In this document: positions 3,548 through 19,013 of the stretch, one piece after another | Numbering within the stretch: the first letter of the stretch is position 1 | Layout of the letters: the number at the start of each line of letters is the position of its first letter | Source of the DNA: a virus | Taxonomy: Duplodnaviria; Heunggongvirae; Uroviricota; Caudoviricetes | DNA: 22,039 bases | IMG/VR virus record: IMGVR_UViG_2609459792_000005 | Reading direction: 5' to 3' (one strand) | Translations under genes and position numbers: made by a program | The notes under the pieces: model-generated | Database searches by the model: none | Told to the model about the DNA's origin: nothing | What the model saw: the letters and a program-made list of their open reading frames with translations, nothing else

Positions 3548-6123
3548 CGTCCACCTCCGGAGAACAGGCCACCATCACGCATCTGTGTCTGAATTTCATC
3601 ACGGGCACCCTTGCGGGCCATGTCATACACCGCCTTCAGAGCAGCCGGACCTATCTGCCCGTTCGTGCCGTCGTTGTTAATCACCACATGGTTATTCTGC
3701 TCAAACGTCCCGGACGCCTGCGACCGGCTGTCTGCCATGCTGCCCGGTGTACCGACATAACCGCCGGTGGCATAGCCGCGCATCAGCCGGTAAAGATTCC
3801 CCACGCCAATCCGGCTGGTTGCCTCCTTCGTGAAGACAAACTCACCACGGTGAACAATCCCCGCTGGCTCATATTTGCCGCCGGTTCCCGTAAATCCTCC
3901 GGTTGCAAAATGGAATTTCGCCGCAGCGGCCTGAATGGCTGTACCGCCTGACGCGGATGCGCCGCCACCAACAGCCCCGCCAATGGCGCTGCCGATACTC
4001 CCGACAATCCCCACCATTGCCTGCTTAAGCAGAATTTCTGTCATCATGGACAGCACGGAACGGGTGAAGCTGCGCCAGTTCTGCTCACTGCCGGTCAGCA
4101 TCGCCGCCATATTCTGTGCAATACCATCAAAGGTCTGCGTGGCTGCACTTTTTACCTGCGACATACTGTCCGTGGCGCTCTCTTCCCACTCACTCCAGCC
4201 GGACTTCAGGCCTGCCATCCAGTTCCCGCGAAGCTGGTCTTCAGCCGCCCAGGTCTTTTTCTGCTCTGACATGACGTTATTCAGCGCCAGCGGATTATCG
4301 CCATACTGTTCCTTCAGGCGCTGTTCCGTGGCTTCCCGTTCTGCCTGCCGGTCAGTCAGCCCCCGGCTTTTCGCATCAATGGCGGCCCATTTTGCCCGTT
4401 GCTGCTGTGCGAATTTATCCGCCTGCTGCGCCAGCGCGTTCAGGCGCTCCTGATACGTAACCTTGTCGCCAAGTGCAGCCAGCTGGCGTTTGTACTCCAG
4501 CGTCTCATCTTTATGCGCCAGCAGGGATTTCTCCTGTGCAGACAGCTGGCGACGTTGCGCCGCCTCCTCCAGTACCGCGAACTGACTCTCCGCCTTCCAC
4601 AAATCCCGGCGCTGCTGGCTGATTTTCTCATTCGCTCCGGCATGCTTCTCCAGCGTCCGGAGTTCTGCCTGAAGCGTCAGCAGGGCAGCATGAGCACTGT
4701 CTTCCTGACGATCGCCCGCAGACACCTTCACGCCGGACTGTTTCGGCTTTTTCAGCGTCGCTTCATAATCCTTTTTCGCCGCCGCCATCAGCGTGTTGTA
4801 ATCCGCCTGCAGGATTTTCCCGTCTTTCAGTGCCTTGTTCAGTTCTTCCTGACGGGCGGTATATTTCTCCAGCGGCGTCTGCAGCCGTTCGTAAGCCTTC
4901 TGCGCCTCTTCGGTATATTTCAGCCGTGATGCCTCAGACTCGGCCCAGTCCTTTGCTGCCATCTCTCTGGCCTTTTCAAGATCGGCCTGCAACGTGGCGG
5001 CTGAAAGCCCAAGTTGCGCATTCGCTCTGTCCTCCCATGCTCCCCGGAGATTGGCAAGAAATGCTGAGGTTTTACCGCGCCGGTGGCTCCGGCTCTGATA
5101 CCACTGCCATTTTTTGTCCGCCTCATCAAAAGCCTTTTCTGCTTTCTCCAGCATTCCCTGGGCAGTGTCCGGGCGACCAATATCCAGCACCGAATCCCAC
5201 ATGGATTTGAATGCCCGTGCTGTCCTGTCTGCCCAGGTCTCCAGCGTGCCCATGTTCTCTTTCAGGCGGCGGGTCTGGTCATCAAACCCTTTCGTTGCGG
5301 CCTCGTTCGCCGCCTGCAATGCCCCGGCTTCATCTCCGGAACGCTGCAACTGAGCAACATACGCAATCTGCTCCGCCGTCACGTTATGGAACTGACGTGC
5401 CATCGCTGTCAGTCCCGACGTCGGGTCTGTGGTCAGCTTCCCGAAGGCTTCAGCGACCTTGTCCACCTCCACGCCGGATGCAGAGGAGAAACGCGCCACA
5501 CTCTGGCTGATCGCCTCAAACTGCTCACCACCACGCACACCGGCATTCACCAGCGCCGTCAGTGACTCGCTGGTCTGGTTAAACGTCAGCCCTGCCGCCT
5601 GCCCGGCTCTGGACAGGACCAGCATACGATCTGCCGTCAGTCCCGCCTGATTGCCGGAAAGGACCAGCGTTTTGTTGAAATCGGACAGGGTTGAGTTGCC
5701 CTGATACCAGGCATACGCCAGCGCACCGGTCGCCACCGCCAGCGAGGTGGCCCCCACCATCGGCAGGGTGATCGCACCGGCAAGCCCCCTGAACATGGGG
5801 ATCATCCCGCCGAAGGAGTCCTTAACCTGACCCCCCTGTTGCAGCAGGATCAGCCACGGGCTTTGCCCGCCTGCAAGCTGCGTGGCCACGTCGGTGAACT
5901 GTGCAGGCAGCATACGCATGGCGGCTTTATACTGCCCGACGGAAATCCCCGCTTTCTGTGCAGCCAGCGCCTGTCGGCTCAGCGACTGTTCAACGACTGC
6001 CGCTGTTTTTTTCGCATCAGTTTCCGTACCGGAAAAATGACGCCTGACTCTGGCCATCTGCTCGTCAAATCTGGCCGCATCCAGACTTAAATCAACGACC
6101 AGATCGCCTACCGGTTCAGCCAT
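3544..6123 (-). CDS. H: Tail tape measure protein H
   Basis: 859 aa ORF (lambda gpH recalled as 853 aa); long predicted coiled-coil/alpha-helical region; glycine-rich hydrophobic segment near C-terminus (GGAVGGGASASGG); immediately downstream of G/T. Confidence 0.9.
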   Translation of the reverse strand: MAEPVGDLVVDLSLDAARFDEQMARVRRHFSGTETDAKKTAAVVEQSLSRQALAAQKAGISVGQYKAAMRMLPAQFTDVATQLAGGQSPWLILLQQGGQVKDSFGGMIPMFRGLAGAITLPMVGATSLAVATGALAYAWYQGNSTLSDFNKTLVLSGNQAGLTADRMLVLSRAGQAAGLTFNQTSESLTALVNAGVRGGEQFEAISQSVARFSSASGVEVDKVAEAFGKLTTDPTSGLTAMARQFHNVTAEQIAYVAQLQRSGDEAGALQAANEAATKGFDDQTRRLKENMGTLETWADRTARAFKSMWDSVLDIGRPDTAQGMLEKAEKAFDEADKKWQWYQSRSHRRGKTSAFLANLRGAWEDRANAQLGLSAATLQADLEKAREMAAKDWAESEASRLKYTEEAQKAYERLQTPLEKYTARQEELNKALKDGKILQADYNTLMAAAKKDYEATLKKPKQSGVKVSAGDRQEDSAHAALLTLQAELRTLEKHAGANEKISQQRRDLWKAESQFAVLEEAAQRRQLSAQEKSLLAHKDETLEYKRQLAALGDKVTYQERLNALAQQADKFAQQQRAKWAAIDAKSRGLTDRQAEREATEQRLKEQYGDNPLALNNVMSEQKKTWAAEDQLRGNWMAGLKSGWSEWEESATDSMSQVKSAATQTFDGIAQNMAAMLTGSEQNWRSFTRSVLSMMTEILLKQAMVGIVGSIGSAIGGAVGGGASASGGTAIQAAAAKFHFATGGFTGTGGKYEPAGIVHRGEFVFTKEATSRIGVGNLYRLMRGYATGGYVGTPGSMADSRSQASGTFEQNNHVVINNDGTNGQIGPAALKAVYDMARKGARDEIQTQMRDGGLFSGGGR

Positions 6124-12244: not shown

Positions 12245-15925
<3,681 letters not shown>

Positions 15926-15951
<26 letters not shown>

Positions 15952-16471
15952 TCAGCAACCCCGGTATCAGTTCATCCAGCGCGGCTGCTTTGTTCATGGC
16001 TTTGATGATATCCCGTTTCAGGAAATCAACATGTCGGTTTTCCAGTTCCGGAAAACGCCGCTGCACCGACAGGGGGATCCCGTCGAGAATACTGGCAATT
16101 TCACCTGCGATCCGCGACAGCACGAAAGTACAGAATGCGGTTTCCACCACTTCAGCTGAGTCTCTGGCATTCTTCAGTTCCTGTGCGTCGGCCTGCGCAC
16201 GCGTAAGTCGATGGCGTTCGTACTCAATAGTCCCTGGCTGGAGATCTGCCTCGCTGGCCTGGCGCAGTTCTTCAACCTCCCGGCGCAGCTTTTCGTTCTC
16301 AATTTCAGCATCCCTTTCGGCATACCATTTTATAACGGCGGCAGAGTCATAAAGCACCTCATTACCCTTGCCACCGCCTCGCAGAACGGGCATTCCCTGT
16401 TCCTGCCAGTTCTGAATGGTACGGATACTCGCACCGAAAATGTCAGCCAGCTGCTTTTTGTTGACTTCCAT
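15926..16471 (-). CDS. Nu1: Terminase small subunit Nu1
   Basis: 181 aa as for lambda gpNu1 as recalled; starts MEVNKKQLADIFGASIRTIQNWQEQGMPV (helix-turn-helix); begins just inside cosB. Confidence 0.9.
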
Positions 16472-16489
16472 TGTTCATTCCACGGCCAA

Positions 16490-16615
16490 AAACAGAGAAA
16501 GGAAACGACAAAGGCCCAAAAGCTCGTTTTCAGCACCTGTCGTTTCCTTTCTTTTCAGGGGGTATTTTAAATAAAAACATTAAGTTACAACGAAGAAGAA
16601 CGGAAATGCCTTAAA
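16490..16615. promoter_or_regulatory. cosB: terminase small-subunit binding sites R1 (16496-16510), R2 (16538-16552, inverted), R3 (16591-16610) and AT-rich IHF-type site I1 (about 16559-16582)
   Basis: Three copies of the GTTTCC-containing motif (tgtcgtttcctttct and its inverse agaaaggaaacgaca, plus ggcatttccgttcttcttcg in reverse complement) arranged as in lambda cosB as recalled. Confidence 0.65.
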
Positions 16616-16648
16616 CCGGAAAATTTTCATAAATAGCGAAAACCCGCG

Positions 16649-16660
16649 AGGTCGCCGCCC
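16649..16660. other. cosN cohesive-end sequence, intact and joined
   Basis: Plus-strand aggtcgccgccc is the reverse complement of the lambda 12-nt cohesive end GGGCGGCGACCT; flanking bases also match the lambda ends as recalled. Confidence 0.8.
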
Positions 16661-16859
16661 CGTAACCTGTCGGATCGCCGGAAAGGACCCGCAAAATGAT
16701 AATAATTATCATCTGCATGTCACAACGTGCATCTACGCCATCAAACCACGTCAAATAATCAATTATGACGCAGGTATCATATTAATTGATCTGCATCAAC
16801 TTAACGTAAAAACAACTTCAGACAATACAAATCAGCGACACTGAATACGGGACAACCTC

Positions 16860-17093
16860 ATGTCAACGAAGAACAGAACCCGCAGAACAACAACCCGCAA
16901 CATCCGCTTTCCTAACCAAATGATTGAACAAATTAACATCGCTCTTGATCAAAAAGGGTCCGGGAATTTCTCAGCCTGGGTCATTGAAGCCTGCCGCCGG
17001 AGACTGTGCTCAGAAAAAAGAGTTTCTCCTGAAGCAAACAAAGAAAAGAGTGACATTACTGAATTGCTCAGAAAACAGATCAGACCAGATTGA
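16860..17093 (+). CDS. Small ribbon-helix-helix (Arc/Mnt/CopG-like) putative DNA-binding protein with Arg-rich N-terminus
   Basis: 77 aa ORF; segment IRFPNQMIEQINIALDQKGSGNFSAWVIEACRRRL fits the RHH pattern (beta-strand R-F-P, helix A, G-x-S/N turn, helix B), compare Arc NLRWPREVLDLVRKVAEENGRSVNSEIYQRVMESF recalled from memory; weak RBS; strand opposite to the late operon. Confidence 0.5.
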   Translation: MSTKNRTRRTTTRNIRFPNQMIEQINIALDQKGSGNFSAWVIEACRRRLCSEKRVSPEANKEKSDITELLRKQIRPD

Positions 17094-17149
17094 AGCAATT
17101 TAGATAATCGTGCAGACTACACCCCTCATATCACATGGAAGGTACTACA

Positions 17150-17560
17150 ATGGCTCAGGTTGCCATTTTTAAACAAATATTCGATAAAGTGCGAAATAAT
17201 TTAAACTATCACTGGTTTTATTCTGAACTAAAACGTCACAATGTCTCACATTACATTTACTATTTAGCCACAGAGAATATTCATCTTGTTCTTGAAAACG
17301 ATAATACGGTTTTAATAAAAGGACAGGGTAAGGTTGTAAATGTAAGATTTTCAAAAAATAAATGCCTTATAGAAGCCACCTTAAAAGGATTCAAATCAGG
17401 AGAGTTATCATTTTACGAATACAGGAAAAATCTTGCTACAGCAGGGGTTTTCAGATGGATTACAAATATCCACGAAAACAAAAGGTATTACTATACCTTT
17501 GATAATTCATTACTCTTTACTGAGAACATTCAGAACACTACACAAATATTTCCGCACTAA
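17150..17560 (+). CDS. Hypothetical protein, probably YbcV/DUF1398-family (prophage protein of unknown function)
   Basis: ORF 17135-17560 in track; second ATG at 17150 has a GGAAGG RBS 9 nt upstream and gives 136 aa starting [14 protein letters not shown]; AT-rich composition; 42-57 bp downstream of the RHH gene on the same strand; family assignment is from memory and uncertain. Confidence 0.55.
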
Positions 17561-17818
17561 ATCATAACGTCCGGTTTCTTCCGTGCCAGAACCGGCCTCG
17601 CTGGCATGATGAAATATGTGTACCCGGTAACCCCGGTGTGCATCGTTTTTGATTATTCCCACACACTCGCGCAGAAGGAGTTCCCCGTCGGGCTACGGTC
17701 TCTGTTAATACGGGAATACGGCGACGATACAGCGCATGATGTGTCAGGCTTGAATACCTTTATCCTTTAAAAGGGATATCAGTTAAGTTATCCCGTGTAG
17801 GGTATAAGCCATTATCAA

Positions 17819-17844
17819 AGCCACTCTGTAGGAAGTGGCTTTTG
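17819..17844 (+). terminator. Putative rho-independent terminator for the plus-strand RHH/DUF1398 unit
   Basis: Stem agccact / agtggct with 8-nt loop followed by TTTTG. Confidence 0.35.
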
Positions 17845-17855
17845 TAATGGCAATA

Positions 17856-17878
17856 AAAAGCCCCGCGAATGCGAGGCT
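17856..17878 (-). terminator. Putative rho-independent terminator downstream of Rz (minus strand)
   Basis: GC-rich imperfect stem (gcctcgc att cgcgggg c on minus strand) followed by TTTTTATTG. Confidence 0.3.
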
Positions 17879-18081
17879 AAATCCTGGTATTTGTAATGAC
17901 TGGCTCTTATCTCAACGCAGCCCCTTACCGCGCGCAAAATGCTCAATATCAAGCATCAGCAATGAGATGTTTAATCTGGATTCACTCCAGAAGTGAGCAC
18001 CACCCTGTCTACAGAGCCAGATGTGAAGGATGATGAGTAAAATTATCGCTATCATCGAAGGCATTGCGTCCTGATGTATTC

Positions 18082-18531
18082 CTAAAGCGTTCTCAGTGCT
18101 GTTTGGTCGCGGATAATTCCGTCCCGGATACCGAGAACGTTTCGTCCAGCAACTGGAGAGAGTTCGACGGTGGCATCATTGCCCATGCCGGAGGCGCTGG
18201 AGGTTTCGGCTGAGGATGGCACAGGGCATTTTCCTTTGACGAGCACCCGACCACCATTATCAAGCTTGCGCCGAAGAGCATCATTTTCAGCTTTCGCATC
18301 AGCTAACTCCTTCGTGTATTTATCATCGAGTGCATCAGCATCACGCTGGCGCTGCTGCATGTCAGTAATGGTGGCGTTCGCCTTCTCCAGTTCACTGGCC
18401 TTGTTATCGCGCTGTTCTTTGTAGGCGATTGCATTATCACGGTAATGATTAACAGCCCATGACAGGCAGACGATGATGCAGATAACCAGAGCGGAGATAA
18501 TCGCGGTTACCCTGCTCATTGTTGCCCCCAC
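18082..18531 (-). CDS. Rz: Inner-membrane spanin subunit Rz (i-spanin)
   Basis: 149 aa; N-terminal TM segment ([16 protein letters not shown]) then coiled-coil-like charged region; follows the endolysin with a 16-nt overlap; contains the embedded Rz1 frame. Confidence 0.85.
18093..18299 (-). CDS. Rz1: Outer-membrane lipoprotein spanin subunit Rz1 (o-spanin), embedded in the +1 frame of Rz
   Basis: 68 aa; signal peptide with lipobox VVGC; proline-rich mature region ([16 protein letters not shown]); wholly inside Rz. Confidence 0.8.
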
Positions 18532-19013
18532 AAACAGACCTCACGCTCAATCTCACGACGAGTCATCAGGCCTTTCCATTGCTTACCGCCAGCGTATGCC
18601 CAGCGACGTAGCTGGTCACATGCGCCCTTGATATCGCCCTGGTTTATTTTGCGAAGAAGAGTAGATGTTCTGAAATTGCCTGCGCCCACGTTATAGACGA
18701 ACGAGTAAAGAGCGCCGCGCGTTGTTTCCGGTATATCGACTTTGATGTACGGGTTAATTTGTCTGGCTACCGTGGCAAGGTCTTTATTCAGGAGGGCTTT
18801 GCATTCTGCTTCGGTATACGTTTTACCGAGCATGATGTCTTTTCCTGTATGCCCGTGACATACAGTCCATACACCAACAATATCTTTGTATGGTATGTAG
18901 CTGACACCTTCCAGACCATCGTTACCACTTGGGCCAGTGATTAACACTGATGCTATAGCAATTGCTCCGCCACCAATAGCAGCAGCAACGACTTTTCGTA
19001 ATGATGGAGGCAT
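18516..19013 (-). CDS. R: SAR (signal-anchor-release) endolysin, phage 21 R-type lysozyme
   Basis: 165 aa; Gly/Ala-rich weakly hydrophobic N-terminal SAR segment ([18 protein letters not shown]) followed by T4-lysozyme-like catalytic region ([20 protein letters not shown]); recognised as close to phage 21 R. Confidence 0.9.

What the first reader, a model, noticed from the sequence alone, without database searches (positions are those of the whole stretch)
16860..17560. cos-proximal two-gene cassette: ribbon-helix-helix protein plus YbcV/DUF1398-like protein, opposite to the late operon
Between Rz and cos (a known hotspot for accessory cargo) sit two co-oriented plus-strand ORFs, AT-rich relative to the flanking phage genes. 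The first (77 aa) has an Arg-rich N-terminus and a convincing RHH motif, so is probably a DNA-binding regulator. The second (136 aa from the RBS-supported start) has no function I can assign. The pairing resembles a small regulator-effector or antitoxin-toxin-like unit. The RHH gene lies within about 200 bp of cosN, in sequence nearly identical to the lambda right end as I recall it, so the ORF may be widely conserved yet unannotated.
Basis: partly seen in the sequence, partly recalled or inferred. Interest (0 to 1): 0.6.

Follow-up and report, generated by a model that had tools for sequence, protein, structure and literature searches.

The report
Known prophage gene pair ynfO–ydfO
The two genes next to the phage's DNA-packaging site are the catalogued but uncharacterised E. 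coli prophage genes ynfO (small DNA-binding-like protein) and ydfO (DUF1398), found in phage lambda and about 70% of complete E. coli genomes, and they do not look like a toxin–antitoxin pair.

Summary
Two co-oriented plus-strand ORFs (16860-17093, 77 aa; 17150-17560, 136 aa) lie between cosN (16649-16660) and Rz (18082-18531), antisense to the late operon. ORF2 is AT-rich (GC 0.32-0.35 against 0.52-0.55 in the flanks).

It is not new. ORF1 is 96% identical to E. coli K-12 YnfO (Pfam DUF3950, NCBIfam YlcI/YnfO). ORF2 is 76% identical to K-12 YdfO (DUF1398, NMR structure 2HH8). K-12 Qin has the same layout (nohA, ynfO, ydfO). DLP12 and lambda carry the ylcI ... ybcV version, split by ybcW. The region matches 3802 of 5426 complete E. 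coli genomes, and PGAP annotates both genes in the listed hits.

Both ORFs are under purifying selection. The ribbon-helix-helix (RHH) call fits the sequence register and helix topology but did not reach significance.

The toxin-antitoxin reading is disfavoured:
- The DUF3950 gene occurs alone in over 100 Stx and lambdoid phages and in P4-like and PICI-like satellites.
- Its C-terminal tail is a recombination junction.
- A YdfO structure was solved from a single-chain entry.

Best reading: an independent small regulator at the lysis/packaging junction, with silenced, stress-inducible accessory cargo behind it. The function of both proteins remains unknown.

The parts
16649..16660 (-). cosN cohesive-end sequence GGGCGGCGACCT. 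It marks the genome end: the right end of the lambda map lies to its right in window coordinates.
   Evidence: Unique exact match, 0 expected by chance.
16661..16859 (.). cos-to-ORF1 intergenic region. It is very highly conserved among lambdoid phages and holds candidate regulatory repeats: palindrome ATGATAAT/ATTATCAT at 16696-16712; ATCTGCAT at 16711-16718 and 16789-16796; inverted repeat ATCAATTA/TAATTGAT at 16758-16765 and 16783-16790. GGGTCCT at 16684-16690 (-) matches what I recall as cosQ.
   Evidence: Repeats. Mean column identity 93% across 5 lambdoid copies. The GGGTCCT match is within chance expectation, so its identification as cosQ rests on memory and position only. No plus-strand sigma-70 consensus site was found.
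16860..17093 (+). ORF1, the ynfO orthologue (77 aa, pI 10.5). It is a DUF3950 / YlcI-YnfO family protein and probably has an RHH-like DNA-binding fold. The conserved domain is codons 1-54 (16860-17021). The C-terminal tail (17022-17093) is variable and coincides with a recombination junction.
   Evidence: Pfam PF13132 at 74.8 bits (cut-off 25); NCBIfam NF041551 at 35.7 bits (cut-off 30). 96% identical to K-12 YnfO. dN/dS 0.04 against the Stx2-phage copy. Homology to lambda breaks at 17022-17077. AF2 topology.
17150..17560 (+). ORF2, a ydfO/ybcV homologue (136 aa; an alternative upstream ATG at 17135 gives 141 aa). It is a DUF1398 family protein, soluble, with no transmembrane segment, and AT-rich.
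   Evidence: Pfam PF07166 at 147 bits. PDB 2HH8 'hypothetical protein YdfO' E 1.4e-69. 76% identical to K-12 YdfO. dN/dS 0.21-0.37. Maximum Kyte-Doolittle 19-residue window 0.39. GC 0.32-0.35.
17606..17770 (+). Possible third co-oriented small ORF (54 aa). It travels with ORF2 but its coding status is uncertain.
   Evidence: Found at +456 from the ydfO start in nearly all IMG/VR loci with the same ydfO allele. Annotated as hypothetical in phages Kati and ev099 but not by PGAP. No family hit. dN/dS about 0.5 on very few changes.
17859..17878 (-). Terminator-like GC-rich hairpin with a T-run on the minus strand, downstream of Rz and the 50-aa ORF. It marks the inner edge of the variable cargo region.
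   Evidence: Consensus scan. This is a pattern match only.
17912..18064 (-). 50-aa ORF with a hydrophobic N-terminus, immediately downstream of Rz. It belongs to the late-strand side and is not part of the cassette.
   Evidence: PGAP hypothetical protein WP_001139678.1 in a 99.9%-identical E. coli prophage. Maximum Kyte-Doolittle window 2.07 at residue 1. No family hit.

Best explanation
The cassette is the lambdoid-prophage gene pair ynfO-ydfO, as found in K-12 Qin. Its paralogous form is ylcI ... ybcV in DLP12 and in lambda itself.

Shown: both are genuine, selected protein genes. They sit at the lysis/packaging junction and are read antisense to the late transcript.

Inferred mechanism: YnfO is a small, basic, dimeric ribbon-helix-helix-type DNA-binding protein. 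It acts as a self-contained transcriptional regulator on the roughly 200-bp region between its own start and the divergent operon or cos. Whatever cargo lies behind it is expressed or controlled with it. In this window the cargo is the AT-rich, horizontally acquired DUF1398 gene, and perhaps a 54-aa ORF. YdfO is a soluble cytoplasmic accessory ('moron') protein. It is normally silenced as AT-rich foreign DNA and is switched on under particular stresses. Its biochemical activity is unknown.

The two proteins are neighbours by modular recombination. They are not an obligate interacting pair.
For: Identity:
- Family hits and 96% / 76% identity to K-12 YnfO / YdfO.
- The same gene order, nohA(-) ynfO(+) ydfO(+), in MG1655.
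- Matches in 3802 of 5426 complete E. coli genomes, with both genes annotated in the listed hits.

Real genes: dN/dS 0.04 for ORF1 and 0.21-0.37 for ORF2. Diverged DUF3950 members across Enterobacterales keep the pattern K-x-IRFP-x2-L-x3-I ... NFSAWV-x2-AC.

DNA-binding regulator reading:
- Arg/Thr-rich N-arm, then IRFP, then two helices.
- The same register as the Arc and Mnt beta-strand/helix A.
- A weak PHROG HicB-like hit.

Independent module:
- The RHH domain is in 155 phage records and DUF1398 in 43.
- In Stx2a_WGPS8 the DUF3950 gene is alone, 41 bp divergent from HNH-TerS-TerL.
- In Klebsiella, Proteus, Salmonella and Dickeya satellites it is a solo gene about 200 bp divergent from the small-ORF/primase operon, with repeated GTGT..ACAC palindromes in between.

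Modular junction: homology with lambda breaks inside the ORF1 tail, where lambda has 614 bp including ybcW.

Cargo-like nature of ydfO:
- GC 0.32-0.35.
- ybcV/ybcW rise more than 1000-fold when T4 MotB, which alters H-NS-dependent repression, is expressed (PMC7827196).
- ydfO is induced about 100-fold by an ionic liquid (PMC4077768).
- ybcV mRNA is 10-fold lower in a pdhR mutant (PMC7660256).
- ydfO appears only in the TraDIS-specific 'essential' list (PMC5821084).

Co-transcription is possible here: there is no significant RNA structure or terminator between ORF1 and ORF2.
Against: - No experiment links YnfO to DNA binding or to ydfO expression.
- No plus-strand sigma-70 consensus promoter was found upstream of ORF1, and ORF1 has only a weak Shine-Dalgarno.
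- The cos-ORF1 intergenic DNA is too conserved for footprinting. Its conservation could instead reflect packaging constraints.
- The activity of YdfO is entirely unknown. The AF2 model was too poor (pLDDT 50) for a fold search.
Confidence: 0.5

Rival explanations
1. Packaging-linked factor. The DUF3950 protein acts at the cos/terminase junction. It might bind DNA near cos, or work with or against the small terminase subunit, for example in packaging specificity, interference with related phages, or satellite redirection. On this reading ydfO is unrelated cargo.
For: The gene keeps the same position and orientation next to two unrelated packaging modules: lambda Nu1/A with cos (this window) and HNH-TerS-TerL of Stx phages. 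Satellites encode complete 120-129-aa proteins that fuse DUF3950 to a Terminase_2 N-terminal domain. That domain is 66% identical to residues 2-54 of the Stx2-phage TerS. Precedents for small proteins that target TerS are PICI Rpp (PMC6739421) and Listeria TerI (bioRxiv 10.1101/2025.02.27.640495).
Against: In P4-like and PICI-like satellites the solo gene sits beside the replication/early operon, not beside packaging genes. The gene is antisense to late transcription, so it is unlikely to be made together with terminase. From my own knowledge, lambda packaging in vitro needs only terminase, IHF and proheads. Rpp is a winged helix-turn-helix protein, not a DUF3950 member. The lysis/packaging junction is also simply the usual slot for accessory genes.
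Confidence: 0.2
2. Type II toxin-antitoxin-like unit. YnfO is an RHH antitoxin and autorepressor, and YdfO is its toxin or effector.
For: A small basic RHH-like gene lies first, with a larger gene 56 nt downstream on the same strand and no terminator between them. The weak structural matches are mostly to RHH antitoxins. The Qin-type C-terminal tail is seen only where ydfO is adjacent. ydfO is depleted of transposon insertions (PMC5821084).
Against: DUF3950 occurs without DUF1398 in more than 100 phage records and in all satellite contexts examined. Lambda and DLP12 separate the two genes by about 0.6 kb with an opposite-strand gene. The tail is a recombination junction with no sign of selection. 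PDB entry 2HH8 contains a single YdfO chain, which I take to mean it was produced on its own. A paper reports, second-hand, that YdfO overexpression is protective rather than toxic (PMC4077768). PADLOC and Pfam give no toxin or defence family.
Confidence: 0.07
3. First-injected counter-defence cassette. The lambda right end enters the cell first (from my own knowledge). A promoter at the extreme right end reading inward could therefore express YnfO and YdfO before the rest of the genome arrives, to counter host defences.
For: Geometry only. ORF1 starts 199 nt from the cohesive end and reads inward.
Against: No promoter was identified. There is no similarity to known anti-defence or defence proteins. 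In Stx phages the gene is separated from the packaging site by HNH. The same gene is kept in cryptic prophages and in satellites, away from any genome end.
Confidence: 0.05
4. ORF1 is not a gene. On this reading its conservation reflects a cis-acting DNA element next to cos.
For: The DNA from cos through codon 54 is 93-96% conserved among lambdoids. The Shine-Dalgarno is weak. The ORF is unannotated in the lambda reference records.
Against: There are 15 synonymous against 3 non-synonymous changes relative to the Stx-phage copy. A diverged protein family down to about 40% identity exists across Enterobacterales, with protein-like conservation, in contexts that lack cos.
Confidence: 0.03

Closest known systems
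E. coli K-12 Qin prophage ynfO (b4533) - ydfO (b1549)
   Same: Same gene order and orientation next to the Nu1 homologue nohA, with a 56-57-nt spacer. YnfO is 96% identical and YdfO 76% identical.
   Different: The window carries a different ydfO allele, one that is 100% identical in 80 IMG/VR contigs. It sits in an apparently intact lambda-like late region rather than a decayed prophage. In K-12 the two genes share a reading frame; here they do not.
Lambda right end and DLP12: ylcI - ybcW - ybcV - bor
   Same: The same cos-proximal DUF3950 N-domain (95% DNA identity up to window 17022) and a DUF1398 gene on the same strand (76% aa identity).
   Different: Lambda and DLP12 have about 614 bp, including the opposite-strand ybcW, inserted between the two genes, a different RHH tail, and bor downstream. 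The window has none of these.
Arc/Mnt/CopG ribbon-helix-helix repressors
   Same: Small size, a basic N-arm, an alternating beta-strand motif (IRF) followed by a Pro helix cap, two helices, and a gene divergent from the operon it might control.
   Different: No significant profile or structure match. The dimeric beta-ribbon and DNA binding are untested. The glycine turn is not conserved across the family.
Type II toxin-antitoxin modules with RHH antitoxins (ParD, RelB, MazE6/7, KacA)
   Different: No strict co-occurrence, no conserved partner-binding tail, and the downstream protein is not known to be toxic.
Phage 'morons' such as lambda bor and lom
   Same: An AT-rich insert between the lysis and packaging modules, opposite to the late operon. 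Expression is decoupled from the late genes according to the literature.
   Different: No own promoter or terminator could be identified here. Published data suggest silencing plus stress induction rather than constitutive expression in lysogens.

Membership tests
DUF3950 / YlcI-YnfO family (Pfam PF13132, NCBIfam NF041551) | Score above the curated cut-offs of both models | tested here: met
   PF13132 at 74.8 bits (cut-off 25); NF041551 at 35.7 bits (cut-off 30).
DUF3950 / YlcI-YnfO family (Pfam PF13132, NCBIfam NF041551) | Orthology to the named K-12 genes, in sequence and in context | tested here: met
   96% identity to YnfO over 77 of 77 residues. The same nohA-ynfO-ydfO layout.
DUF1398 (Pfam PF07166; YdfO/YbcV) | Score above the Pfam gathering threshold over the whole domain | tested here: met
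   147 bits (cut-off 22), profile positions 1-119 of 119.
DUF1398 (Pfam PF07166; YdfO/YbcV) | Close similarity to the solved family member | tested here: met
   2HH8 YdfO, E 1.4e-69 over residues 1-140.
Ribbon-helix-helix (Arc/MetJ/CopG) superfamily | N-terminal beta-strand followed by two helices joined by a tight turn | tested here: inconclusive
   The AF2 monomer gives helices 19-32 and 34-54 with a one-residue turn. Residues 1-18 are coil, as might be expected if the strand forms only in a dimer. pLDDT is 83-86 in the helices and 70 overall.
Ribbon-helix-helix (Arc/MetJ/CopG) superfamily | Significant sequence-profile similarity to established RHH families | tested here: not met
   No Pfam RHH family at E<=10 for 14 diverse members. 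hhalign against Arc and Mnt finds the correct register but only 1-7% probability. PDB profile search is empty. The only hint is PHROG HicB-like at E 0.007.
Ribbon-helix-helix (Arc/MetJ/CopG) superfamily | Significant structural similarity to solved RHH proteins | tested here: inconclusive
Ribbon-helix-helix (Arc/MetJ/CopG) superfamily | Homodimer with an antiparallel beta-ribbon inserted in the DNA major groove | not testable with these tools
   Only monomer prediction was available. This needs AF-multimer, a crystal or NMR structure, or EMSA.
Type II toxin-antitoxin system | Strict co-occurrence and adjacency of the two genes | tested here: not met
   155 phage records encode the RHH domain against 43 with DUF1398. 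The gene is solo in Stx phages and satellites. It is separated from DUF1398 by ybcW in lambda and DLP12.
Type II toxin-antitoxin system | The antitoxin carries a conserved toxin-binding region that tracks the toxin | tested here: not met
   The tail after residue 54 differs between arrangements and coincides with a homology breakpoint. No selection signal could be measured in the tail.
Type II toxin-antitoxin system | The downstream protein is toxic when made alone and is neutralised by the upstream one | not testable with these tools
   Indirect evidence only. The YdfO structure 2HH8 is a single-chain entry. There is a second-hand report that overexpression increases oxidative-stress resistance (PMC4077768), which I could not find in the main text of the cited source.
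Phage moron (accessory gene unit) | Base composition distinct from neighbouring phage genes, and insertion between functional modules | tested here: met
   GC 0.32-0.35 against 0.52-0.55. The unit lies between Rz and cos/Nu1. The cargo between ydfO and Rz varies across contigs.
Phage moron (accessory gene unit) | Own promoter and terminator | tested here: inconclusive
   No plus-strand consensus promoter or terminator was found. Consensus scans are insensitive in AT-rich DNA.
Known anti-phage defence systems (PADLOC) | Match to a defence-system protein model | tested here: not met
   There is no hit for ORF1 or orf54. ORF2 gives only Csx23 at E 0.025 and 12.6 bits.

The most novel reading that the evidence does not exclude
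The DUF3950 protein is not just a local regulator. On this reading it is a conserved DNA-binding factor of the lysis/packaging junction that is functionally tied to the small terminase subunit or the packaging site. The support is its fixed position beside two unrelated terminase modules, and satellite proteins that fuse it to a copy of the helper phage's TerS DNA-binding domain. It could set or subvert packaging specificity, which would make it a new player in phage-satellite and phage-phage conflict.
Probability: 0.15. Interest if true: 0.6.

Novelty: already known. Interest (0 to 1): 0.2.

Why it matters
As found, it matters little. The pair is the catalogued y-gene pair ynfO-ydfO (ylcI/ybcV in DLP12 and lambda), with Pfam families and a solved structure.

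What remains open is function. A 2024 y-ome survey still lists both genes as uncharacterised (PMC11551758). Yet they are present in lambda and match about 70% of complete E. coli genomes.

The comparative picture here is testable. The regulator is an independent module, the toxin-antitoxin reading is unlikely, and there is a recurring link to the terminase junction and to satellite TerS-domain fusions. This points to cheap experiments in the best-studied phage there is.

Tried and rejected
- The AF2 model of ORF2 from an 18-sequence alignment had pLDDT 50, too poor for a fold search, so no remote-fold inference for DUF1398 was possible.
- The afdb50 library was unavailable.
- Profile searches of ORF1 against PDB sequences and against Pfam RHH families were empty.
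- Rfam found nothing credible in 16400-18200.
- The consensus scan found no plus-strand promoter or terminator for the cassette.
- Phylogenetic footprinting of the cos-ORF1 intergenic region failed because the copies are 93-100% identical.
- The lambda ribosome-profiling paper (Liu et al. 2013, PNAS) is not held, so translation of the lambda ORF could not be checked.
- The statement that YdfO overexpression protects against oxidative stress could not be found in the main text of its cited source.
- Apparent DUF3950+DUF1398 'fusion' proteins (P0134, P0130) were rejected as Rosetta-stone evidence. They read the ynfO TGA stop as Trp on short Logan/ENA contigs.
- The apparent spread of both families to Gram-positive and environmental genomes was rejected as lambda DNA contamination.
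- PICI Rpp was considered as a homologue of DUF3950 and rejected. It is a winged helix-turn-helix protein.
Full report
**What is there.** The window is a lambda-like late region drawn in reverse. Terminase large subunit (14026-15951) and Nu1 (15926-16471) lie on the minus strand. The unique cohesive-end sequence GGGCGGCGACCT is at 16649-16660. Rz, Rz1 and R lie at 18082-19013 on the minus strand. ORF1 runs 16860-17093 (77 aa, pI 10.5). ORF2 runs 17135-17560, with an internal ATG at 17150 preceded by GGAAGG that gives 136 aa. ORF1 starts 199 nt from the cohesive end. GC drops to 0.32-0.35 over ORF2, against 0.52-0.55 in the flanking phage genes; ORF1 is 0.42-0.44.

**Identity.**
- ORF1 matches Pfam DUF3950 (74.8 bits, cut-off 25) and NCBIfam 'YlcI/YnfO family protein' (35.7 bits, cut-off 30).
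- ORF2 matches Pfam DUF1398 over the full model (147 bits) and the NMR structure 2HH8, 'hypothetical protein YdfO', at E 1.4e-69.
- In MG1655 the Qin prophage has nohA(-), ynfO(+, 77 aa) and ydfO(+, 136 aa) in the same layout. ORF1 is 96% identical to YnfO and ORF2 is 76% identical to YdfO.
- DLP12 carries the paralogous arrangement rzpD-borD-ybcV-ybcW-ylcI-nohD, and lambda has the same.
- Megablast of 16700-17600 finds the region in 3802 of 5426 complete E. coli genomes, 2653 of them over at least 80% of the query. Both genes are named by PGAP in the listed hits.
- A 2024 survey still lists ynfO and ydfO as uncharacterised (PMC11551758).

The thing is therefore already catalogued, but of unknown function. 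NC_001416, DE3, HK629 and HK630 show no feature under the match.

**Are they real genes?** Yes. The ORF1 N-domain differs from the Stx2-phage copy by 15 synonymous and 3 non-synonymous changes (dN/dS 0.04). ORF2 against the lambda, Qin-like and DLP12-like copies gives dN/dS 0.21-0.37. An exhaustive HMMER search of 1.84 billion cluster representatives finds only 112 DUF3950 representatives. The named members are Enterobacterales, plus Pasteurella. Members down to about 40% identity keep the pattern K-x-IRFP-x2-L-x3-I ... NFSAWV-x2-AC. Hits attributed to Staphylococcus, Bacillus, Streptomyces, Flavobacterium and others sit on contigs of about 3.5 kb or 48.5 kb that are lambda DNA. These are contamination, not distribution.

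**Is ORF1 a ribbon-helix-helix protein?** It is plausible but not proven.
- AF2 (pLDDT 70 overall, 83-86 in the core) gives coil 1-18, helix 19-32, a one-residue turn, helix 34-54 and a low-confidence tail helix.
- hhalign of two family alignments against Arc and Mnt always places IRFP on LRWP and FRMP, which is the strand plus helix-A cap. Probabilities are only 1-7%.
- Foldseek, a PDB profile search and a permissive Pfam scan of 14 diverse members give no RHH hit. A PHROG HicB-like match has E 0.007.

I put the RHH fold at about 0.7.

**Are the two genes a functional pair?** The comparative evidence says the RHH gene is an independent module.
1. tblastn over 50,697 phage records finds the RHH domain in 155 records but DUF1398 in only 43, all lambda-like.
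2. In Stx2a_WGPS8 the DUF3950 gene is alone, 41 bp divergent from HNH-TerS-TerL. The next genes are on the other strand.
3. In Klebsiella, Proteus, Salmonella and Dickeya, DUF3950 is a solo gene in P4-like or PICI-like satellites. It lies about 200 bp divergent from the small-ORF/primase operon and close to alpA and int, with no DUF1398 nearby. That intergenic region holds three or four GTGT..ACAC-type palindromes, which are candidate operators.
4. Against lambda and DLP12, homology runs to window 17022 (codon 54 of ORF1) and resumes at 17077. Lambda has 614 bp there, including ybcW on the other strand. The variable C-terminal tail of ORF1 is therefore a recombination junction, and it carries no measurable selection signal.
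5. In IMG/VR contigs with the identical ydfO allele, the RHH gene sits at -290/-291 wherever upstream sequence is present, and the 54-aa ORF at +456 in nearly all of them. This holds even when the adjacent Nu1 is only 37-57% identical. The distance to Rz varies from about 1.2 to 2.4 kb. The truly variable cargo slot therefore lies between the cassette and Rz. It holds bor in lambda, KilA-N in ev099 and an IS1 in one E. coli strain.

**Toxin-antitoxin reading.** Adjacency, order and size fit, and no RNA structure separates the genes. Against it, co-occurrence is not strict and no conserved partner-binding tail exists. PADLOC and Pfam give no toxin or defence family. YdfO was solved as a single-chain PDB entry. 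One paper states, second-hand, that its overexpression is protective (PMC4077768); I could not find this in the main text of the cited source. I give this reading about 0.07.

**What the literature says about expression.**
- ydfO is induced about 100-fold by an imidazolium ionic liquid, in a growth-phase-dependent way (PMC4077768).
- PdhR SELEX sites lie at ybcV/ybcW and in ydfO, and ybcV and ybcW mRNAs fall about 10-fold in a pdhR mutant (PMC7660256).
- ybcV and ybcW rise more than 1000-fold when T4 MotB, which alters H-NS-dependent repression, is expressed (PMC7827196).
- ydfO changes on DicC overexpression (bioRxiv 10.1101/2024.09.21.614188).
- ydfO is 'essential' only by TraDIS (PMC5821084).

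Taken with the AT-richness, this looks like xenogeneically silenced, conditionally expressed accessory cargo. YdfO has no hydrophobic segment (maximum Kyte-Doolittle window 0.39). The legacy labels 'putative envelope protein' (lambda) and 'head protein' (PHROG 413) have no support here.

**Best explanation.** YnfO is a small RHH-type DNA-binding regulator acting on the roughly 200-bp region between its start and the divergent operon or cos. YdfO, and perhaps the 54-aa ORF, is AT-rich accessory cargo placed behind it by modular recombination. That cargo is silenced in the prophage and induced under stress. Identity and gene reality are shown. DNA binding, autoregulation and any control of ydfO are inferred. 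Weak points are the absence of a recognisable plus-strand promoter, the weak Shine-Dalgarno of ORF1, and an intergenic region too conserved to footprint.

**A lead outside the brief.** The DUF3950 gene keeps the same place and orientation beside two unrelated packaging modules. Satellites (L139-L142) encode complete 120-129-aa proteins in which DUF3950 is fused to a Terminase_2 N-terminal domain. That domain is 66% identical to residues 2-54 of the Stx2-phage TerS. This resembles in principle the TerS-targeting strategies of PICI Rpp, which is a wHTH protein and not homologous, and Listeria TerI. It keeps alive a packaging-linked role for DUF3950, at about 0.15-0.2.

**Verdict.** This is a correct observation of an already known, already annotated gene pair. 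The RHH idea is reasonable, the toxin-antitoxin idea is unlikely, and function is still open. Interest is low.

Noticed in passing
L139:4001-4363, L140:4001-4363, L141:1447-1809, L142:4001-4390: Integrase/AlpA/primase satellites encode complete 120-129-aa proteins that fuse a DUF3950 domain to a Terminase_2 (TerS) N-terminal DNA-binding domain. That domain is 66% identical to residues 2-54 of an Stx2-phage TerS. In L139-L141 a second, solo DUF3950 gene lies just upstream. This may be a packaging-redirection or interference factor.
   Followed up: partly
L047-L058, about 3780-4000 (intergenic region upstream of the DUF3950 gene): In P4-like and PICI-like satellites of Klebsiella, Proteus, Salmonella and Dickeya, the solo DUF3950 gene is divergent from the small-ORF/primase operon. 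The roughly 200-bp spacer carries 3-4 copies of a GTGT-N4-6-ACAC-type palindrome (for example AAGGTGTTTAAACAC), one of them next to a TTGACG -35-like hexamer for the leftward operon. These are candidate operators.
   Followed up: partly
Protein hits; loci L011-L046: Many DUF3950 and DUF1398 hits are attributed to Staphylococcus, Bacillus, Streptomyces, Flavobacterium, Cohnella and others. They sit on contigs of about 3.4-3.6 kb or about 48.5 kb that are lambda right-end DNA. From memory, these are most likely the 3.6-kb lambda control amplicon used in nanopore sequencing, or spiked lambda DNA. 'Campylobacter phage CJLB-4' (48,361 bp) also carries the lambda versions of both genes.
   Followed up: partly
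P0134 and P0130; L144:4257-4958: Hundreds of Logan/ENA gene calls merge ynfO and ydfO into one 233-aa protein by reading the ynfO TGA stop as Trp. In K-12 Qin the two genes share a frame (291 nt apart), so this is possible there. In the window they are 290 nt apart and out of frame. It is probably a genetic-code artefact of gene calling, not a real fusion.
   Followed up: partly
window 17606-17770 (+): A 54-aa ORF lies 46 nt after ydfO. It is found at the same offset in nearly all IMG/VR contigs with this ydfO allele and is annotated in phages Kati and ev099, but not by PGAP. It has no family hit, and dN/dS is about 0.5 on few changes. Its coding status is unresolved.
   Followed up: partly
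window 17912-18064 (-) and 17859-17878 (-): A 50-aa ORF with a strongly hydrophobic N-terminus lies directly downstream of Rz (PGAP hypothetical WP_001139678.1). It is followed by a GC-rich hairpin plus T-run on the same strand. It may be a small membrane peptide at the end of the lysis cassette.
   Followed up: partly
window 17560-18082; loci L059-L138: The distance from ydfO to Rz varies from about 1.2 to 2.4 kb among contigs that share the identical ydfO allele. The segment holds different cargo elsewhere: bor in lambda, KilA-N in ev099, IS1 in E. coli ECCTRSRTH03. The variable hotspot is this segment, not the ynfO-ydfO block.
   Followed up: partly
window 17150-17560; lambda complement 47048-47452: DUF1398 proteins are labelled 'head protein' (PHROG 413, copied into RefSeq phage records) or 'putative envelope protein' (lambda lambdap78). 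The protein has no hydrophobic segment, and nothing seen here supports either label.
   Followed up: partly
L147:4435-5109 (-), L148:3634-4608 (-), L050:3631-4467 (-): In some satellite records a long ORF on the opposite strand is annotated across the DUF3950 frame. In Pasteurella phage Pmp7 it is called 'transcriptional repressor'. In near-identical elements (L051, L052) that ORF is only 58 aa, while the DUF3950 ORF is conserved. The long ORF is probably a miscall.
   Followed up: no
window 16696-16723 (-): A promoter-like site on the minus strand (GTGACA-16 nt-TATCAT, 10 of 12 matches) points toward cos and Nu1. Its -10 lies inside the palindrome 16696-16712. The hexamers are weaker in lambda. 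This is a consensus match only.
   Followed up: no
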